Assembly: GCA_946544555.1 (NCBI GenBank)
Contig: CAMNMI010000001.1
Location: 1 to 30,822 of the forward strand
Length of the DNA stretch: 30,822 nt
Direction: 5' to 3'
Source of the DNA: an uncultured Rickettsiales bacterium
Lineage (GTDB): Bacteria; Pseudomonadota; Alphaproteobacteria; Rickettsiales; Deianiraeaceae
Below are positions 11,439-26,304 of the stretch, piece after piece. Every line of letters starts with the position of its first letter. Within the stretch, counting starts at the first letter, position 1. The notes below the pieces were generated by a model, which was not told the origin of the DNA, did no database searches, and worked only from the letters and a program-made list of their open reading frames with translations. Made by a program: the position numbers and the translations under genes.

Positions 11439-13952
11439 ATGCTTGGCAATATAAACAGCAAATTCAAAAATGCGAAGGCAGCAATAAAGAAAAAGCAAGA
11501 TGAGCTAAACTTCAAAAAGCTCAAAGACGGAGTATTTCCTTATGCATGTCTGGTGGCAGATGACGTAATGCTAACAAAAAACGGTGAGGTCTTCCAGATG
11601 ATTGAAATTCTGCTGGATGACTTTAAGGATAACCAAGAGGGAGGGCTGCGTGAGCATATCAGAAAGGCAATTGACTACAACTCTGGGGACTTAAACACAG
11701 CGTTCTGGATACAGACAGTTAAGAAGAGAAAGACAAATATTACAAGAAAAAATGGTAATAATAACAAATTGTTCTTGAAGAAAATTGGCCAAACAGCAGA
11801 AATGAATGAGAATTCTCTAAATAATTATTCTACATACATTTACATTACCGTCATCAAGCAAGGGACAACTTTCAAACTACAACCAAAAAAAATCAAGGAC
11901 TACTTCTTTGCCACATTTTTGGATCATACACATGACAGATTTGTGCAGAAAATTATCGTAGACGTCCGCAAGACAACGGAGAAGATAGTCAGCATGTTGG
12001 CACAATACAGGCCAAAAATATTAGGTGTCAGACGTGGCGATGGATGTGAATATTCTGAACTGATTGAAAAGTTGTATTTCTTAATCAACTTTGAGGACAA
12101 GGAACAAGTCGTTCGACCAATAGACGTTACACATTGTGTGAATACTGGGCGCTATATGTTCCAGAATGGTATCATTGCAATGAAGAGTGAGCTTACCAAT
12201 AAGATGAAAATGGGAATGACATTCTCATTTAAGGAAGTGCCAAGAATTACAATGCCAAATGTGTCGGATATAGTCAATAATACCAGAGCAGAAATGGTGA
12301 TTACAGAATATGTAACTTACATAGACCAAAAGCGTGCAGCGGAACAATTTAGTGAACAAAAAGAGTTTTTAAAGAAGAAGGACGATAAAATATTTCAAGA
12401 GAAAGTTGGGCTGTCATTTTTGGACGATAATGCTAATGCAAAATATTGTAAGTCATCAATATCTGTTCTGATTTTTGGGAATAGTTATAATGAGTTGCAG
12501 TCATTTGTTGCGGAAGCAATTGATCTTTTCTCCAAGCATGGGATTGTCATGGCAAGAGAAGATATAAGTGCAGAACGTTGCTACTATTCCGTAATGCCGG
12601 CAAATTTCACATTTACACAACGTCTTACAGTTCATGATGCCAAGGAGATTGGTTGTTTTTGTTATTCATATCATCCGCAGGACTGCGATGCAACTGTTTA
12701 TCTTAATGACTTGGTGCTGTTTAATATTGGGACGTTGAAGGGAAATCCTGTGCCAATTGGATTTGATAAACAGAGGCCAAATACGATTATTGGCGGACGC
12801 GAAGGAAGTGGTAAAACTGTTTTTTCAAACTTCATGGCCGCGTCCTATCTGGCAGAAATTGACGCCAATTTGTATATCATTGAATTTAACTGTCGTTCGC
12901 GTGCCTTTATTGAAGCCATGGAAGGCCAATGGTTTAGGGTGTCAATGGATAAACAAAACCACACTGCATTGATGAACCTGCTAGATTTGGATATATTTGG
13001 AGAGTATAAATCACAGAAGGAGAGTTATCTCTTTGACAGTTTGTCTTTATTGTTATCAGCGAACAATGTGCTGGTAACACCAGAAATGACAACTGAGCTC
13101 CATGATGCAATAGACCAAATCATTGAACTGTACGAACAAAATCCACACATTGCGTTACACGATGTGAGAAACATCTTGGATAAATATTCAATCGGGCAGG
13201 AACTGAATGTCTGGCACTCTATTGGTAAGTATTACCATCTGTTTGATAACAGGGACAACATCTTTGAGAAGAATAATGGCTTGATGGCAATACACATTGA
13301 CGAAACCGTTGCAAGTAAGTCATTGATTTTGGCTTCTGTTATGAATAATTTGATGACGAATATAACTCAACGCGCAAGTAAGACGGGCAAACCAACAATC
13401 ATCATCATGGAAGAGCCATTCCTGGCGCTTGGAAATGCATTCTTTAAAACAAAACTCAATAGAATGTTAGAGTTCATGGCGGCAAACAAGATTTTCTGCA
13501 TATTCAAAATTGCTGACTTTGAGCGCGCAAACTCAACCATTGTGGATTTCGGCCAGCTTGTAAATTCATGCGGTTTGCAAATACATATAGCCAACAAGTT
13601 TGCAGACAAGGAATATGGAAGGATATTTCACTTGGAGAAGTTGGACTACATGGCAGTCAAAACCTTGGCAATGTATGAGGGGCGCAATATGCTTGTCAAA
13701 CAGAGGTCTGGAATGTACTCATGTGCTTTTGACTTGAAGCGTTATAAGAAGACACTAAGTTTATTATCAGACAAACTTGAAGCCAAGACAAAGATCTTGG
13801 CAATTAAAGATACTCTGCAAACAGAAAGCGTTGAGCGTTGGCTCACAGCATACTATGGTGACTTTGATACCAATAGCGATGAAGAGACGCGTCTTGCTCT
13901 GCAACGTGAGCTGCAAGCCATCAAGGATGTCAGAAGGTTGATGGAGAGTTAG
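11439..13952 (+). CDS. virB4: VirB4-family type IV secretion ATPase, stand-alone paralogue (rvhB4-II-like)
   Basis: 837 aa; MLTKNGEVFQMI N-terminal motif, Y.S..PAN, Walker A GREGSGKT, degenerate Walker B region IIIMEEP; no other vir genes nearby. Confidence 0.8.
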   Translation: MLGNINSKFKNAKAAIKKKQDELNFKKLKDGVFPYACLVADDVMLTKNGEVFQMIEILLDDFKDNQEGGLREHIRKAIDYNSGDLNTAFWIQTVKKRKTNITRKNGNNNKLFLKKIGQTAEMNENSLNNYSTYIYITVIKQGTTFKLQPKKIKDYFFATFLDHTHDRFVQKIIVDVRKTTEKIVSMLAQYRPKILGVRRGDGCEYSELIEKLYFLINFEDKEQVVRPIDVTHCVNTGRYMFQNGIIAMKSELTNKMKMGMTFSFKEVPRITMPNVSDIVNNTRAEMVITEYVTYIDQKRAAEQFSEQKEFLKKKDDKIFQEKVGLSFLDDNANAKYCKSSISVLIFGNSYNELQSFVAEAIDLFSKHGIVMAREDISAERCYYSVMPANFTFTQRLTVHDAKEIGCFCYSYHPQDCDATVYLNDLVLFNIGTLKGNPVPIGFDKQRPNTIIGGREGSGKTVFSNFMAASYLAEIDANLYIIEFNCRSRAFIEAMEGQWFRVSMDKQNHTALMNLLDLDIFGEYKSQKESYLFDSLSLLLSANNVLVTPEMTTELHDAIDQIIELYEQNPHIALHDVRNILDKYSIGQELNVWHSIGKYYHLFDNRDNIFEKNNGLMAIHIDETVASKSLILASVMNNLMTNITQRASKTGKPTIIIMEEPFLALGNAFFKTKLNRMLEFMAANKIFCIFKIADFERANSTIVDFGQLVNSCGLQIHIANKFADKEYGRIFHLEKLDYMAVKTLAMYEGRNMLVKQRSGMYSCAFDLKRYKKTLSLLSDKLEAKTKILAIKDTLQTESVERWLTAYYGDFDTNSDEETRLALQRELQAIKDVRRLMES

Positions 13953-14036
13953 TTGTGCCGGCGCAGAGCACATTTGGCCGTAGCGCAGTGTAGATTTACA
14001 AACCACGAGGGCGTGGCCGCGGGTGGCGGTAGCACC
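13952..14036 (-). repeat. Family B structured repeat, degenerate copy B0
   Basis: GTTGTGCCGGCGCAGAGCACATTTGGCCG...CAAACCACGAGGGCGTGGCCGCGGG aligns with copy B2; lies between convergent virB4 and ORF 14067-14579. Confidence 0.75.
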
Positions 14037-14066
14037 AGGTTATAGTTTGAATGTTTAAGTTGTGGT

Positions 14067-14579
14067 TCACGAGATGCTTTTGTCTTGTTGTTTTTGATTG
14101 TAAGTGGATATTTTGGCTTCATCGTTATTTGTTTTGTTTTGTTGTTGCCCCGAGAGTGGTTCTTTGGTTTCTTTTTCTTGTTTAACATATTGGCTCCTGT
14201 CTTTTTCACAAGTATTACCTGGACTTAGGTTTTTTATGACTATGTTCGGACTGTTAACACTTTTACTATATTTGTGAGCACCAACACCGAGACACACACA
14301 TCCAAGCAAAAAAGCTCCTATTCCAACAGGAAGAGCTATTGCTAAGCTACCAGCAACCAATGCGCACACAAGTGGTGTAGCAATTAATGCGGCTATGACA
14401 AGAAACAAACCTAATAATCCCAATCCAAATCCTTCTGTTGATTTTTCATATACCGTTTCTTTAACTTGTGCTGTACCTTGTTGTGTCACGTGAAAAACCG
14501 TTCCATCTTTTTCAACATCAAACTTTTGTTCTGGCAATTGTACTGTCTTGACAGTTTCACTAATTTTTTTGTAGTCCAT
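14067..14579 (-). CDS. Hypothetical membrane protein with a long bilobed hydrophobic segment
   Basis: ~50-aa hydrophobic stretch GFGLGLLGLFLVIAALIA...VCLGVG flanked by hydrophilic ends; K/Q/N-rich tail. Confidence 0.6.
   Translation of the reverse strand: MDYKKISETVKTVQLPEQKFDVEKDGTVFHVTQQGTAQVKETVYEKSTEGFGLGLLGLFLVIAALIATPLVCALVAGSLAIALPVGIGAFLLGCVCLGVGAHKYSKSVNSPNIVIKNLSPGNTCEKDRSQYVKQEKETKEPLSGQQQNKTNNDEAKISTYNQKQQDKSIS
14482..14497. promoter_or_regulatory. Possible degenerate third parS
   Basis: TGTGTCACGTGAAAAA, 14/16 to TGTTTCACGTGAAACA; lies inside a CDS, so it may be chance. Confidence 0.25.
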
Positions 14580-14647
14580 AAAAGCAATATAACATAATAA
14601 TAAAAATAGACAAGTTTAAATTTTGTTTATTAAAGGTAATTACTATA

Positions 14648-25172: not shown

Positions 25173-25255
25173 AGTATATTTTTCCTATACTAAAAACTTA
25201 TTTCTTGCAACTTTATAAATTTTTAATAAAATTTAATAGTATTAAAGTTTATTTT

Positions 25256-26203
25256 ATGGAAAGTAGTAACAAAAAAAACATTGAAGAAAAACAAATCAAA
25301 ATTTATGTAAAAAATGGTTCAGTTTTATATGATAAATTTAACAAATTAGCAAAAGAACATAATTACACGGATGCAATAGCATTTATAGAAAAAGAAATCA
25401 GCAAATCATTGCATATTATGGATGAGTATTCATTGGATGCTGGTACTTGTAAAGTAGAAAAAATAGGTAATAAAAAACAAATTTATATAGAATGGCCAGA
25501 AAATAAACAAAATGAGAAACTGAGTATTGTATTCAGTCATGGCCACAATAATCCTCCTGAATATATTTTAAAAAATATAAGTATTGACGATTTAAAAAAT
25601 GAAGCAGAAAAGATCATGCCAAAAACCTGTAAAATAAGTTGCAGGACAGCTCCAGGAAAACAACCAAGTATTAGAGTTCAATTTCCTGATGATAATAAAG
25701 TGACATTCTATCAAGACGGTTGGGTAAACGGTAAAAACAGTTCAATACATATTCATCAAAACTCACCAATTAAAGAGACAGATGACTTTAAGATTTATAG
25801 CGTTGGACAAGGAGATGATGCGGTTGAAATTAGTTATAGAAAAACAGGAAATAAAAGTATAAGAATTACAAATAAAAACGGTGACGGAATATGCATATAC
25901 CCAGATTTATATATCAATCCTGTAAAAAACGGCCACATGACGAAGCAAGGAAGTCAAAAAATCAATTGTAATCTTTTTGAGTTTATAGAAAACAACTTTT
26001 TTAAAGTAAATTATAATAAAAACAAATCTGTTTTGAAAAAGCCAATTCAGAATGCGTCCCATAATGTACCACAACAGTATCAATTCCAGAGCGGAATAAA
26101 TAACCCATTTAACAACCAACCAAGCAATATAATCCAAAACGCACCTAATAACAGTATGCTCTATTCATTAAATGAAACCAATGAATTTACAATAAATCTG
26201 TAA
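25256..26203 (+). CDS. Hypothetical protein with N/Q-rich C-terminal tail
   Basis: Very AT-rich 315-aa ORF from ATG 25256; the longer call from 24959 runs through repeats A2 and B4. Confidence 0.65.
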   Translation: MESSNKKNIEEKQIKIYVKNGSVLYDKFNKLAKEHNYTDAIAFIEKEISKSLHIMDEYSLDAGTCKVEKIGNKKQIYIEWPENKQNEKLSIVFSHGHNNPPEYILKNISIDDLKNEAEKIMPKTCKISCRTAPGKQPSIRVQFPDDNKVTFYQDGWVNGKNSSIHIHQNSPIKETDDFKIYSVGQGDDAVEISYRKTGNKSIRITNKNGDGICIYPDLYINPVKNGHMTKQGSQKINCNLFEFIENNFFKVNYNKNKSVLKKPIQNASHNVPQQYQFQSGINNPFNNQPSNIIQNAPNNSMLYSLNETNEFTINL

Positions 26204-26206
26204 AAG

Positions 26207-26304
26207 TGTGTTGCGGAGCGCGGAGCGCGTTTGGCCGCCGAGCGGAGCGAGGGGGAGCGTAGCGGTGCCAAACGGCGAGGGCGTGGCCTCGGGTCCGCAA
26301 CACA
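26207..26304 (-). repeat. Family B structured repeat, copy B5
   Basis: 11-bp terminal inverted repeat TGTGTTGCGGA/TCCGCAACACA; fills nearly the whole gap between two convergent stop codons. Confidence 0.9.

What the first reader, a model, noticed from the sequence alone, without database searches (positions are those of the whole stretch)
13952..26304. Family B: dispersed GC-rich repeat whose fold, not sequence, is conserved (compensatory changes in two stems)
Seen: six copies (13952, 18832, 20299, 22192, 25077, 26207). Co-oriented, the complete copies read: outer stem - conserved 5' arm containing a CGAGG-ccacgc-CCTCG mini-hairpin - inner stem - variable loop - inner stem - conserved GCGCTCCGCGC arm - outer stem. 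The outer stem co-varies: GTTGCGC/GCGCAAC (B3), GTTGTGC/GCACAAC (B2), GTTGCGGA/TCCGCAAC (B5). The inner stem co-varies: ATTTGGC/GCCAAAT (B3), GTTTGGC/GCCAAAC (B5), GTTTGGC/GCCAAAT (B2, G-U), GTTTGC/GCAAAC (B4, one pair lost on both arms). The loop varies from ~19 to ~47 nt and is built from CGCTNCGCT units. Five of six copies sit at gene 3' ends, three between convergent genes. Inference: a selected ssDNA or RNA three-way-junction element (REP/REPIN-like, or a 3'-UTR RNA motif) that I do not recognise as a described family.
Basis: partly seen in the sequence, partly recalled or inferred. Interest (0 to 1): 0.8.

Follow-up and report, generated by a model that had tools for sequence, protein, structure and literature searches.

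The report
GC-rich palindromic intergenic repeat family
The six "family B" copies belong to about 190 copies of an 83-121-base GC-rich hairpin repeat, a REP/MITE-like selfish element that fills the gaps between genes in three related rumen Rickettsiales genomes, with real paired-base changes in two stems but no known transposase and no sign of a host function.

Summary
They belong to a family of about 188 copies, 2.2% of a 0.9-Mb, 38.6%-GC Rickettsiales MAG; the copies themselves are 69% GC.

- **Distribution:** the family occurs only in this genome and two sister species. It was not found in 25 other genomes of the family or 120 of the order, and it matches nothing in Rfam, plasmids or phages.
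- **Stems:** compensatory changes are real in the outer stem (P1) and inner stem (P3). The 7-bp P1 core has at least 11 compensated pairs against about 0.14 expected.
- **Conserved motifs:** the CGAGG/CCTCG mini-hairpin and the GCGC/GCGC arm are conserved as sequence and never compensate. "Fold, not sequence" is therefore overstated.
- **Placement:** every copy is intergenic, in either orientation, often within 10 nt of a stop codon, with no target-site duplication.
- **In situ evolution:** orthologous copies diverge at 4-6% in stems, loops and flanks alike, so no structure-specific constraint is visible.
- **Module swaps:** the inner hairpin module differs at about a third of orthologous sites while arms and flanks stay put, which points to gene conversion between copies.
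- **Enzyme:** no Y1/RAYT, IS110, TnpB or Transposase_31 gene was found, and IS1595 genes do not track the repeat.

Verdict: a new family of REP/MITE-like selfish palindromic repeats with an unknown mobilising enzyme, not a dedicated 3'-UTR RNA motif.

The parts
13952..14034 (-). B1: complete but decayed copy (83-nt type). Its edge overlaps the virB4 TAG stop by 1 nt, between convergent genes.
   Evidence: the G003 ortholog has an extra 730-bp gene between the virB4 stop and this copy
18832..18886 (+). B6: truncated copy with outer stem 5' arm, P2 motif and inner stem 5' arm only, 30 nt after the recN stop.
   Evidence: the same truncation is in G003, while G007 carries a full copy of another subtype in the opposite orientation at the same left boundary
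20299..20381 (-). B2: complete 83-nt copy with the compensated outer stem GTTGTGC/GCACAAC, 5 nt from the stop of the Fe-S assembly gene.
22194..22304 (+). B3: complete 111-nt copy with inner stem ATTTGGC/GCCAAAT, 16 nt after the stop of an ORFan.
   Evidence: (the G003 ortholog has a 10-nt longer inner module)
25078..25173 (+). B4: complete 96-nt copy with inner stem GTTTGC/GCAAAC. It is the 3' part of an A-B composite (A at 24898-25038).
   Evidence: (the G003 ortholog has a different 121-type inner module with identical flanks and the same unusual GCGCAAAG end)
26209..26302 (-). B5: complete 94-nt copy with outer stem GTTGCGGA/TCCGCAAC, between convergent genes. Gives the cleanest four-way fold.
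   Evidence: RNA z -3.19; DNA z -2.96
24898..25038 (+). Family A copy (141 nt, two long hairpins) that starts with the same TGTTGCGC terminus and is joined to B4 by a 39-nt spacer. The A-B composite recurs elsewhere in the genome.
   Evidence: 8 of 13 A copies with an intact 3' end are followed by B within 120 nt, 7 of them co-oriented

Best explanation
B is a non-autonomous, selfish palindromic DNA repeat of the REP/MITE/RPE kind. It multiplied in the common ancestor of three rumen Rickettsiales species and now occupies about one intergenic spacer in four.

Anatomy, 5' to 3': T-GTTGCGC (outer stem P1, 8-10 bp); a conserved arm CCCGAGGCCACGCCCTCGC; an inner stem P3 (GTTTGGC and variants); an exchangeable inner module of 19-57 nt; the P3 return strand; a conserved arm GCGCTCCGCGC; and the P1 return strand GCGCAAC-A.

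Inferred mechanism: spread required the ends to pair as a hairpin or cruciform in single-stranded DNA. The terminal TTG/CAA and the two conserved arms were read as sequence by an unidentified enzyme, now lost or not yet recognised. That is why lineages with altered P1 or P3 carry matched changes on both strands.

Shown: once inserted, copies are not held by selection on the fold. They drift like other intergenic DNA and are repeatedly overwritten in their inner part by gene conversion from other copies. They survive only where they do no harm, just past stop codons and in spacers.
For: Copy number and restriction to a three-species clade. Composition is foreign to the genome, 68.9% GC against 38.6%. 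All copies are intergenic and none sits inside a gene. ORF stops lie within 10 nt of the element edge in 49 of 101 cases and never inside it. There is no orientation bias relative to genes (28/29), contigs (87/101) or neighbouring copies (43/51). Compensatory changes occur in P1 and P3 only: seven distinct fully compensated P1 variants, including GGTGTGG/CCACACC with three matched pairs. Decayed copies exist, such as B1 and C7_3332. Divergence between orthologs is equal in stems, loops and flanks, and about 37% of single stem substitutions keep pairing by wobble, as neutral drift predicts. The inner module differs at 16 of 46 evaluable orthologous sites, at least 11 of them whole-module replacements, and one copy is a chimera with a breakpoint in the loop, all with arms and flanks unchanged. 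Contigs break at copies, 34 of 230 contig ends, as expected of a high-copy repeat.
Against: No mobilising enzyme was found. Y1/RAYT, IS110, TnpB and Transposase_31 are all absent, and IS1595 genes do not co-occur with B (G003 has at least 139 B copies and no IS1595). No clean filled/empty site pair was recovered: 62 of 62 G000/G003 sites are occupied in both, and the three length polymorphisms found involve extra non-B DNA. Transposition itself is therefore inferred, not shown. B and other intergenic DNA diverge 2.4-3 times more slowly than third codon positions, so some constraint or homogenisation acts on them. All genomes are 82-84% complete MAGs, so a single-copy enzyme gene could be missing.
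Confidence: 0.6

Rival explanations
1. B is a host-selected structural element: an mRNA 3'-end stabiliser, terminator or insulator hairpin that works in either orientation and is kept at each locus because it benefits expression of the flanking genes.
For: Half of the copies lie within 10 nt of a stop codon, and they are modestly enriched in convergent spacers, 32 copies in 138 such spacers. Orthologous copies are retained at 62 of 62 sites over a 22% four-fold-site divergence. Short contigs covering B2, B3 and B5 occur in a rumen metatranscriptome. REP elements in E. coli are known to stabilise upstream mRNA (established knowledge).
Against: There is no stem-specific conservation in situ: P1 4.1%, P3 5.6%, loops 5.7%, flanks 5.0%. 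Divergence is not lower than in other intergenic DNA, 7.1% against 6.3%. 24 copies lie between divergent genes, where there is no 3' end. The 3' flank is A-rich and the 5' flank T-rich, the reverse of an intrinsic terminator. Five same-genus species manage without the element. Truncated half-copies are conserved just as well.
Confidence: 0.15
2. B, together with family A, is the recombination site of a still-active, structure-reading site-specific system. An example would be a tyrosine recombinase acting on folded single strands, as integron integrases do on attC or XerCD on IMEX elements. Such a system would insert, flip and replace elements at preferred spots and could bracket accessory genes.
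For: At the recN and virB4 3' sites, G007 carries a different subtype or the opposite orientation at exactly the same boundary as G000/G003. Variable-length inner structures between conserved paired boxes recall attC architecture. A and B share the TGTTGCGC terminus and form A-B composites. G000 and G007 encode tyrosine recombinases beyond the XerC/XerD pair. There is no target-site duplication, as expected for conservative site-specific recombination.
Against: The polarity of the terminal boxes (5' GTTGCGC ... GCGCAAC 3') is the reverse of attC (5' RYYYAAC ... GTTRRRY 3'). Copies are dispersed in both orientations, not in co-oriented arrays. G003 has only the two Xer-like genes in the 82% recovered. 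No gene-content difference bounded by A and B was demonstrated.
Confidence: 0.1
3. The matched changes are a mutational by-product, not selection on a fold. Template switching within quasi-palindromes during replication copies one arm from the other, and gene conversion moves whole modules, so both arms change together.
For: Gene conversion between copies is directly supported. Template-switch correction of imperfect palindromes is an established mutational mechanism. No structure-specific constraint is seen in situ.
Against: Among 34 orthologous pairs no clean arm-to-arm correction was seen, while about 34 single stem changes toggle a pair between matched and mismatched, so mismatches persist uncorrected. 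The P2 and P4 inverted repeats never compensate although they are equally palindromic. Divergent lineages differ at three P1 pairs at once while keeping the arms' sequence, which fits selection during spread better.
Confidence: 0.1

Closest known systems
REP / BIME / REPIN elements of Gammaproteobacteria (mobilised by RAYT, a Y1 HUH transposase)
   Same: High-copy, GC-rich relative to the spacers, extragenic, palindromic, found at gene 3' ends and between convergent genes, with no target-site duplication, a mosaic or modular build, and pairing kept by matched changes.
   Different: No RAYT gene in any of the three carrier genomes. The element is a compound 83-121-nt structure whose two conserved arms are unrelated to each other, not a pair of inverted REPs. 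It is found in a 0.9-Mb intracellular-type genome.
Bacterial MITEs such as Correia elements (Neisseria), RUP (S. pneumoniae) and QMITEs (Coxiella; PMC5896051, review PMC10969869)
   Same: About 100-nt non-autonomous repeats with terminal inverted repeats (TGTTGCGC/GCGCAACA, a TG...CA end), hundreds of copies making up about 2% of the genome, subfamilies with internal indels, and intergenic placement.
   Different: No target-site duplication of 2-8 nt. No parent IS with the same ends. The inner part of the terminal repeat varies with compensation, which a protein reading double-stranded terminal repeats would not require.
Rickettsia palindromic elements (RPE-1 to RPE-10)
   Same: Selfish palindromic repeats of about 100-150 nt in Rickettsiales, with no known transposase.
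   Different: RPEs often sit in-frame inside protein genes (PMC10969869), whereas B never does: 0 of about 170 copies. The B covariance model found no sequence or structure match in 120 other genomes of the order. B is GC-rich.
Mobile GC clusters and double-hairpin elements of fungal mitochondrial genomes (from my own knowledge, not tested here)
   Same: GC-rich hairpin modules scattered through a very AT-rich, compact genome of alphaproteobacterial ancestry, mostly intergenic, with no dedicated transposase known and spread or exchange linked to recombination.
   Different: Shorter (30-60 nt), a different sequence, and an organelle context. The analogy is one of behaviour only.
Integron attC sites
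   Same: Paired outer and inner boxes with a variable terminal structure, and conservation of pairing more than of sequence in the stems.
   Different: Reverse polarity of the GTT/AAC boxes, dispersed copies in both orientations, and no integron integrase or array context.

Membership tests
REP/REPIN (RAYT-mobilised) | A RAYT (Y1 HUH transposase, Pfam PF01797) gene in the genome, typically flanked by REPs | tested here: not met
   no PF01797 match in G000, G003 or G007 (82-84% complete), while the control genomes gave matches. The incompleteness of the MAGs leaves some doubt.
REP/REPIN (RAYT-mobilised) | Unit is a 20-40-nt imperfect palindrome; a REPIN is two such units in inverted orientation | tested here: not met
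   the left arm (CCCGAGGCCACGCCCTCGC) and right arm (GCGCTCCGCGC) are not reverse complements of each other. Only P1 and P3 pair.
MITE | Terminal inverted repeats | tested here: met
   T-GTTGCGC ... GCGCAAC-A, 8-10 bp, with TTG/CAA nearly invariant.
MITE | Target-site duplication flanking each copy | tested here: not met
   for k=3-8 there were at most 6 of 105 matches in any register, and k=2 matched at chance level.
MITE | A related autonomous IS with the same ends in the same or related genomes | tested here: not met
   the only multi-copy transposase (IS1595 family) has no B-like ends and no B copies beside it; its distribution does not follow B.
Rickettsia palindromic elements | Sequence/structure similarity to RPE families present in Rickettsia and relatives | tested here: not met
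   DNA and covariance-model searches found B in no other genome of the order (0 of 120 sampled).
Rickettsia palindromic elements | Frequent in-frame insertion inside protein-coding genes | tested here: not met
   no copy interrupts an ORF. The five 'inside ORF' calls are over-extended ORF starts or ends.
Integron attC | 5' RYYYAAC ... GTTRRRY 3' box order, in co-oriented cassette arrays next to intI | tested here: not met
   The sequence shows 5' GTTGCGC ... GCGCAAC 3'. Orientation is mixed: 87 +/101 -, and neighbouring copies are 43 same/51 opposite.
Intrinsic terminator | GC-rich hairpin followed by a U tract | tested here: not met
   the 3' flank is A-rich (A at +1 in 73%) and the T-rich run lies on the 5' side, in both reading directions.
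Any Rfam RNA family | Covariance-model match | tested here: not met
   gathering threshold, whole window: only two tRNAs; E up to 1 on four loci with copies: only a chance snoRNA hit elsewhere.

The most novel reading that the evidence does not exclude
B (with A) could be the substrate of an undescribed mobilisation route that has no transposase. Folded GC-rich four-way DNA junctions would be inserted, flipped and have their inner hairpin module swapped at fixed spots just past stop codons, by host recombination or Xer-type enzymes. That would amount to a hairpin-cassette exchange system in a reduced intracellular genome.
Probability: 0.1. Interest if true: 0.7.

Novelty: new member of a known kind. 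Interest (0 to 1): 0.35.

Why it matters
The finding gives a clean, data-rich example of a palindromic repeat burst in a reduced symbiont genome: about 190 copies in each of three species, with many orthologous sites. It separates two things that are usually conflated. Pairing was selected while the family spread, yet resident copies show no structure-specific constraint. It also documents frequent replacement of the inner module at fixed loci, which bears on how dispersed repeats evolve in concert. In practical terms, the repeat explains why these MAGs are fragmented, because contigs end in copies, and it provides a clade-specific marker. It does not point to a new kind of RNA or a new biochemical system unless the mobilising activity proves to be unusual.

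Tried and rejected
- **RAYT/REPIN:** no Y1 transposase.
- **Other candidate enzymes:** IS110, TnpB and Transposase_31 are absent.
- **IS1595 as the parent:** present in G000 (9 copies), but it has no shared ends, no adjacency to B and the wrong distribution.
- **Target-site duplications and extension of the palindrome into the flanks:** none beyond what composition predicts.
- **Clean filled/empty sites:**
  - 62 G000/G003 sites are all occupied in both genomes.
  - Candidates C9_3658 and C22_6166 turned out to be a segmental duplication and a complex rearrangement.
  - The G007/G000 site at C5:8058 and the metagenome contig L268 differ by the element plus unrelated DNA.
- **Strand asymmetry of G·T versus A·C mismatches:** 39 against 15 in P1+P3, but dominated by one subfamily and one alignment column, so it was not used.
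- **My first anchor-based pairing count:** mis-registered and discarded.
- **RNA evidence:** only contigs of one small metatranscriptome were available. Short contigs lie on B2, B3 and B5 at depths similar to the neighbouring genes, whereas in the DNA run B is 10-20 times deeper than unique sequence. This suggests read-through transcription and not a discrete abundant RNA, but it is inconclusive.
- **Intergenic alignment with same-genus genomes that lack B:** not possible at 64-70% identity.
- **RNAalifold on the mixed-subtype alignment:** recovered only the inner stem.

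
Full report
**Context.** The window is contig C1 of a 900-kb, 115-contig MAG with 38.6% GC. Its VirB4 protein is 95-97% identical to those of two rumen "Rickettsiales bacterium" MAGs, RGIG3562 from goat and RGIG4838 from roe deer. 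These correspond to handles G003 and G007.

**Observation.**
- All six copies exist at the stated coordinates. Co-oriented and aligned, five are complete and the one at 18832 is a 5' half.
An outer stem T-GTTGCGC/GCGCAAC-A (P1) is followed by a conserved arm CCCGAGGCCACGCCCTCGC holding a possible CGAGG/CCTCG mini-hairpin (P2). Next come an inner stem (P3), a variable inner module, the P3 return strand, a conserved arm GCGCTCCGCGC holding a possible GCGC/GCGC mini-hairpin (P4), and the P1 return strand.
- Single copies fold into this four-way shape as RNA or DNA, with z-scores of about -2 to -3 for the intact copies. The z-scores are about 0 for the decayed B1, and also for B4, whose 3' end is altered.

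**Genome-wide picture.**
- A profile built from the five complete copies finds 172 hits at E<1e-3. A rebuilt profile finds 188 hits, 2.2% of the assembly, and 34 of these touch contig ends.
- The 18-nt P2 motif occurs 151 times at up to 3 mismatches, against 0 in a shuffled genome.
- Complete copies fall into length classes of 83, 88, 95/96, 111 and 121 nt. The classes are defined by alternative inner modules: GTTTGGC..., GTTTGC-AATCTCC..., GTTTG-TATTTCGC... and GTTTTT-CACCTCC....
- The copies are 68.9% GC.

**Distribution.**
- DNA and covariance-model searches find the family in G000, G003 and G007 only, with at least 139-145 model hits each.
- It was not found in five other species of the same genus, which share only 64-70% nucleotide identity with G000. 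It was not found in 20 further genomes of the family, nor in 120 sampled genomes of the order.
- A pattern scan of JGI metagenomes returns more than 118 contigs, from a handful of metagenome accession series.
- Rfam, plasmid and phage collections give nothing.
- I found no paper describing the element.

**Covariation.**
- On an 86-sequence MAFFT alignment from the three species, my P1-P4 structure pairs in 94.7% of cells, against 32-48% when partners are slid.
- There are 51 cells with changes on both sides, against 12.1 +/- 2.8 in shuffles (0 of 500), and the covariation score is 0.102 against 0.054.
- All nine pairs with double-sided changes lie in P1 and P3. P2 and P4 have none, and their variants break pairing.
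- In the 7-bp P1 core of 106 G000 copies, 61 are consensus. Nine copies, of seven distinct types, are fully Watson-Crick with changes on both arms. Examples are GTTGTGC/GCACAAC, GTTGCAC/GTGCAAC, GTTGGGT/ACCCAAC and GGTGTGG/CCACACC.
- From the observed frequency of single changes I estimate about 0.14 compensated pairs expected by chance, against at least 11 observed. This estimate is my own arithmetic on the counts.
- The terminal TTG/CAA is almost invariant.

**Placement.**
- With a simple ORF-based gene set (779 ORFs, 81.5% coding), no copy interrupts a gene. The five nominal exceptions are over-extended ORF ends.
- Copies lie in 57 tandem, 32 convergent and 24 divergent spacers. In tandem spacers, 28 are co-oriented and 29 anti-oriented to the genes.
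- Contig-strand counts are 87 against 101, and neighbouring copies are 43 in the same orientation against 51 opposite.
- A 100-codon-or-longer ORF ends within 10 nt of the element edge in 49 of 101 cases, with a median of 12 nt, and never inside the element.
- There is no target-site duplication, and the flanks are no more complementary to each other than composition predicts.
- The flanks are T-rich on the 5' side and A-rich on the 3' side, the opposite of a terminator.

**Evolution in place.**
- I fetched 499 kb of G003. All 62 G000 copies whose two flanks could be placed in G003 have an occupied orthologous site there.
- For 34 same-length pairs, per-site divergence is: flanks 5.0%, inner loop 5.7%, P1 4.1%, P2 stem 5.6%, P3 5.6%, P4 stem 5.9%. 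No clean compensatory double change occurred, and single changes make or break pairs about as neutral drift predicts.
- Across 392 kb of long alignments, B diverges by 7.1% and other intergenic DNA by 6.3%. Codon positions 1, 2 and 3 diverge by 3.5%, 2.0% and 16.8%. Four-fold degenerate sites diverge by 22%.
- B is therefore no more conserved than other spacers and shows no constraint specific to its stems. Both B and the other spacers are oddly slow compared with silent sites.
- The inner module differs at 16 of 46 evaluable orthologous sites. At least 11 of these are replacements of a whole module by another family type. One copy (C19_2225 in G003) is a chimera with a breakpoint in the loop. 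Arms, unusual end variants and flanks stay the same throughout.
- This is the signature of gene conversion between dispersed copies using the conserved arms as homology.
- In G007, the recN and virB4 3' sites carry another subtype, in one case inverted, at the same boundary.

**Mobilising enzyme.**
- No Y1/RAYT, IS110, TnpB or Transposase_31 gene was found.
- The only multi-copy transposase is an IS1595-family DDE gene: 8 ORFs by all-against-all BLAST and 9 Pfam matches. Its copies are 68-88% identical to one another, share no flanks, lack B-like ends and are not next to B.
- G003 has none of these genes, while the B-free G001 and G004 have two each.
- Tyrosine recombinases beyond the XerC/XerD pair exist in G000 and G007. 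I could not test them.

**Family A.** This 141-nt two-hairpin repeat has about 20 copies and begins with the same TGTTGCGC. Eight of 13 copies with an intact 3' end are followed within 120 nt by a B copy, seven of them co-oriented. An A-B composite bounded by B-type ends has therefore itself spread.

**Expression.** Only contig-level data from one small rumen metatranscriptome were available. Short contigs cover B2, B3 and B5 at depths like those of the neighbouring genes, whereas in the DNA run of the probable source sample B is 10-20 times deeper than unique sequence. This fits read-through transcription and not a discrete abundant RNA, but it proves little.

**Conclusion.**
- B is a clade-specific family of selfish palindromic repeats in the REP/MITE/RPE tradition. 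Pairing of P1 and P3 mattered while the family spread, most simply because a folded single strand was the substrate.
- It is not a member of any tested family: no RAYT, no target-site duplication, no parent IS, no in-gene insertions, and the wrong box polarity for attC.
- Resident copies behave as tolerated passengers that are homogenised by gene conversion. A dedicated 3'-UTR RNA role is unlikely.
- The mobilising activity remains unknown, and that is the one open point that could raise the interest of this finding.

Noticed in passing
window 21068-21208, 24898-25038, 27574-27714, 30768-30822: Family A is a 141-nt GC-rich repeat made of two long hairpins, with about 20 copies in the genome. 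It starts with the same TGTTGCGC as B and contains a TTGACTTGTCAA palindrome (a -35-like box in both directions). It often forms an A-spacer-B composite that has itself been copied around the genome.
   Followed up: partly
G000 vs G003, genome-wide: Intergenic DNA, with or without repeats, is only 6-7% diverged between the two species, while third codon positions are 17% and four-fold sites 22% diverged. Spacers in this lineage evolve about 3 times more slowly than silent sites. This is unexplained; constraint, gene conversion or alignment bias are all possible.
   Followed up: partly
L001:5515-6243 (G003), between the virB4 stop and the ortholog of B1: G003 carries an extra 730-bp segment with a small ORF exactly at the boundary of the B1 copy. 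G000 lacks it, so this is a gene-sized indel whose breakpoint coincides with the element edge.
   Followed up: no
G000 contigs C113, C24, C114, C107, C22 and others: The largest paralogous protein family in the genome (21 members, 130-370 aa) carries a type IV pilin-like N-terminal methylation motif. That is a notable expansion for a 0.9-Mb genome.
   Followed up: partly
window 21379-21982 (inside ORF 21089-22177): The ORFan flanked by an A copy upstream and B3 downstream does not align at DNA level with G003 over about 600 nt, although both neighbours align at 89-93%. It is either a fast-evolving or a replaced gene segment.
   Followed up: no
G000 contigs C2, C4, C17, C41, C47, C73, C110: There are nine IS1595-family DDE transposase genes, 68-88% identical to one another, each with its own promoter-like upstream region and no recognisable shared ends. 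G003 has none and G007 has one broken copy.
   Followed up: partly
window 29211-29385: An imperfect tandem repeat of AAAG/GAAG-rich units (lysine/glutamate/proline-rich coding repeats) lies inside ORF 28815-30149 (family D3).
   Followed up: no
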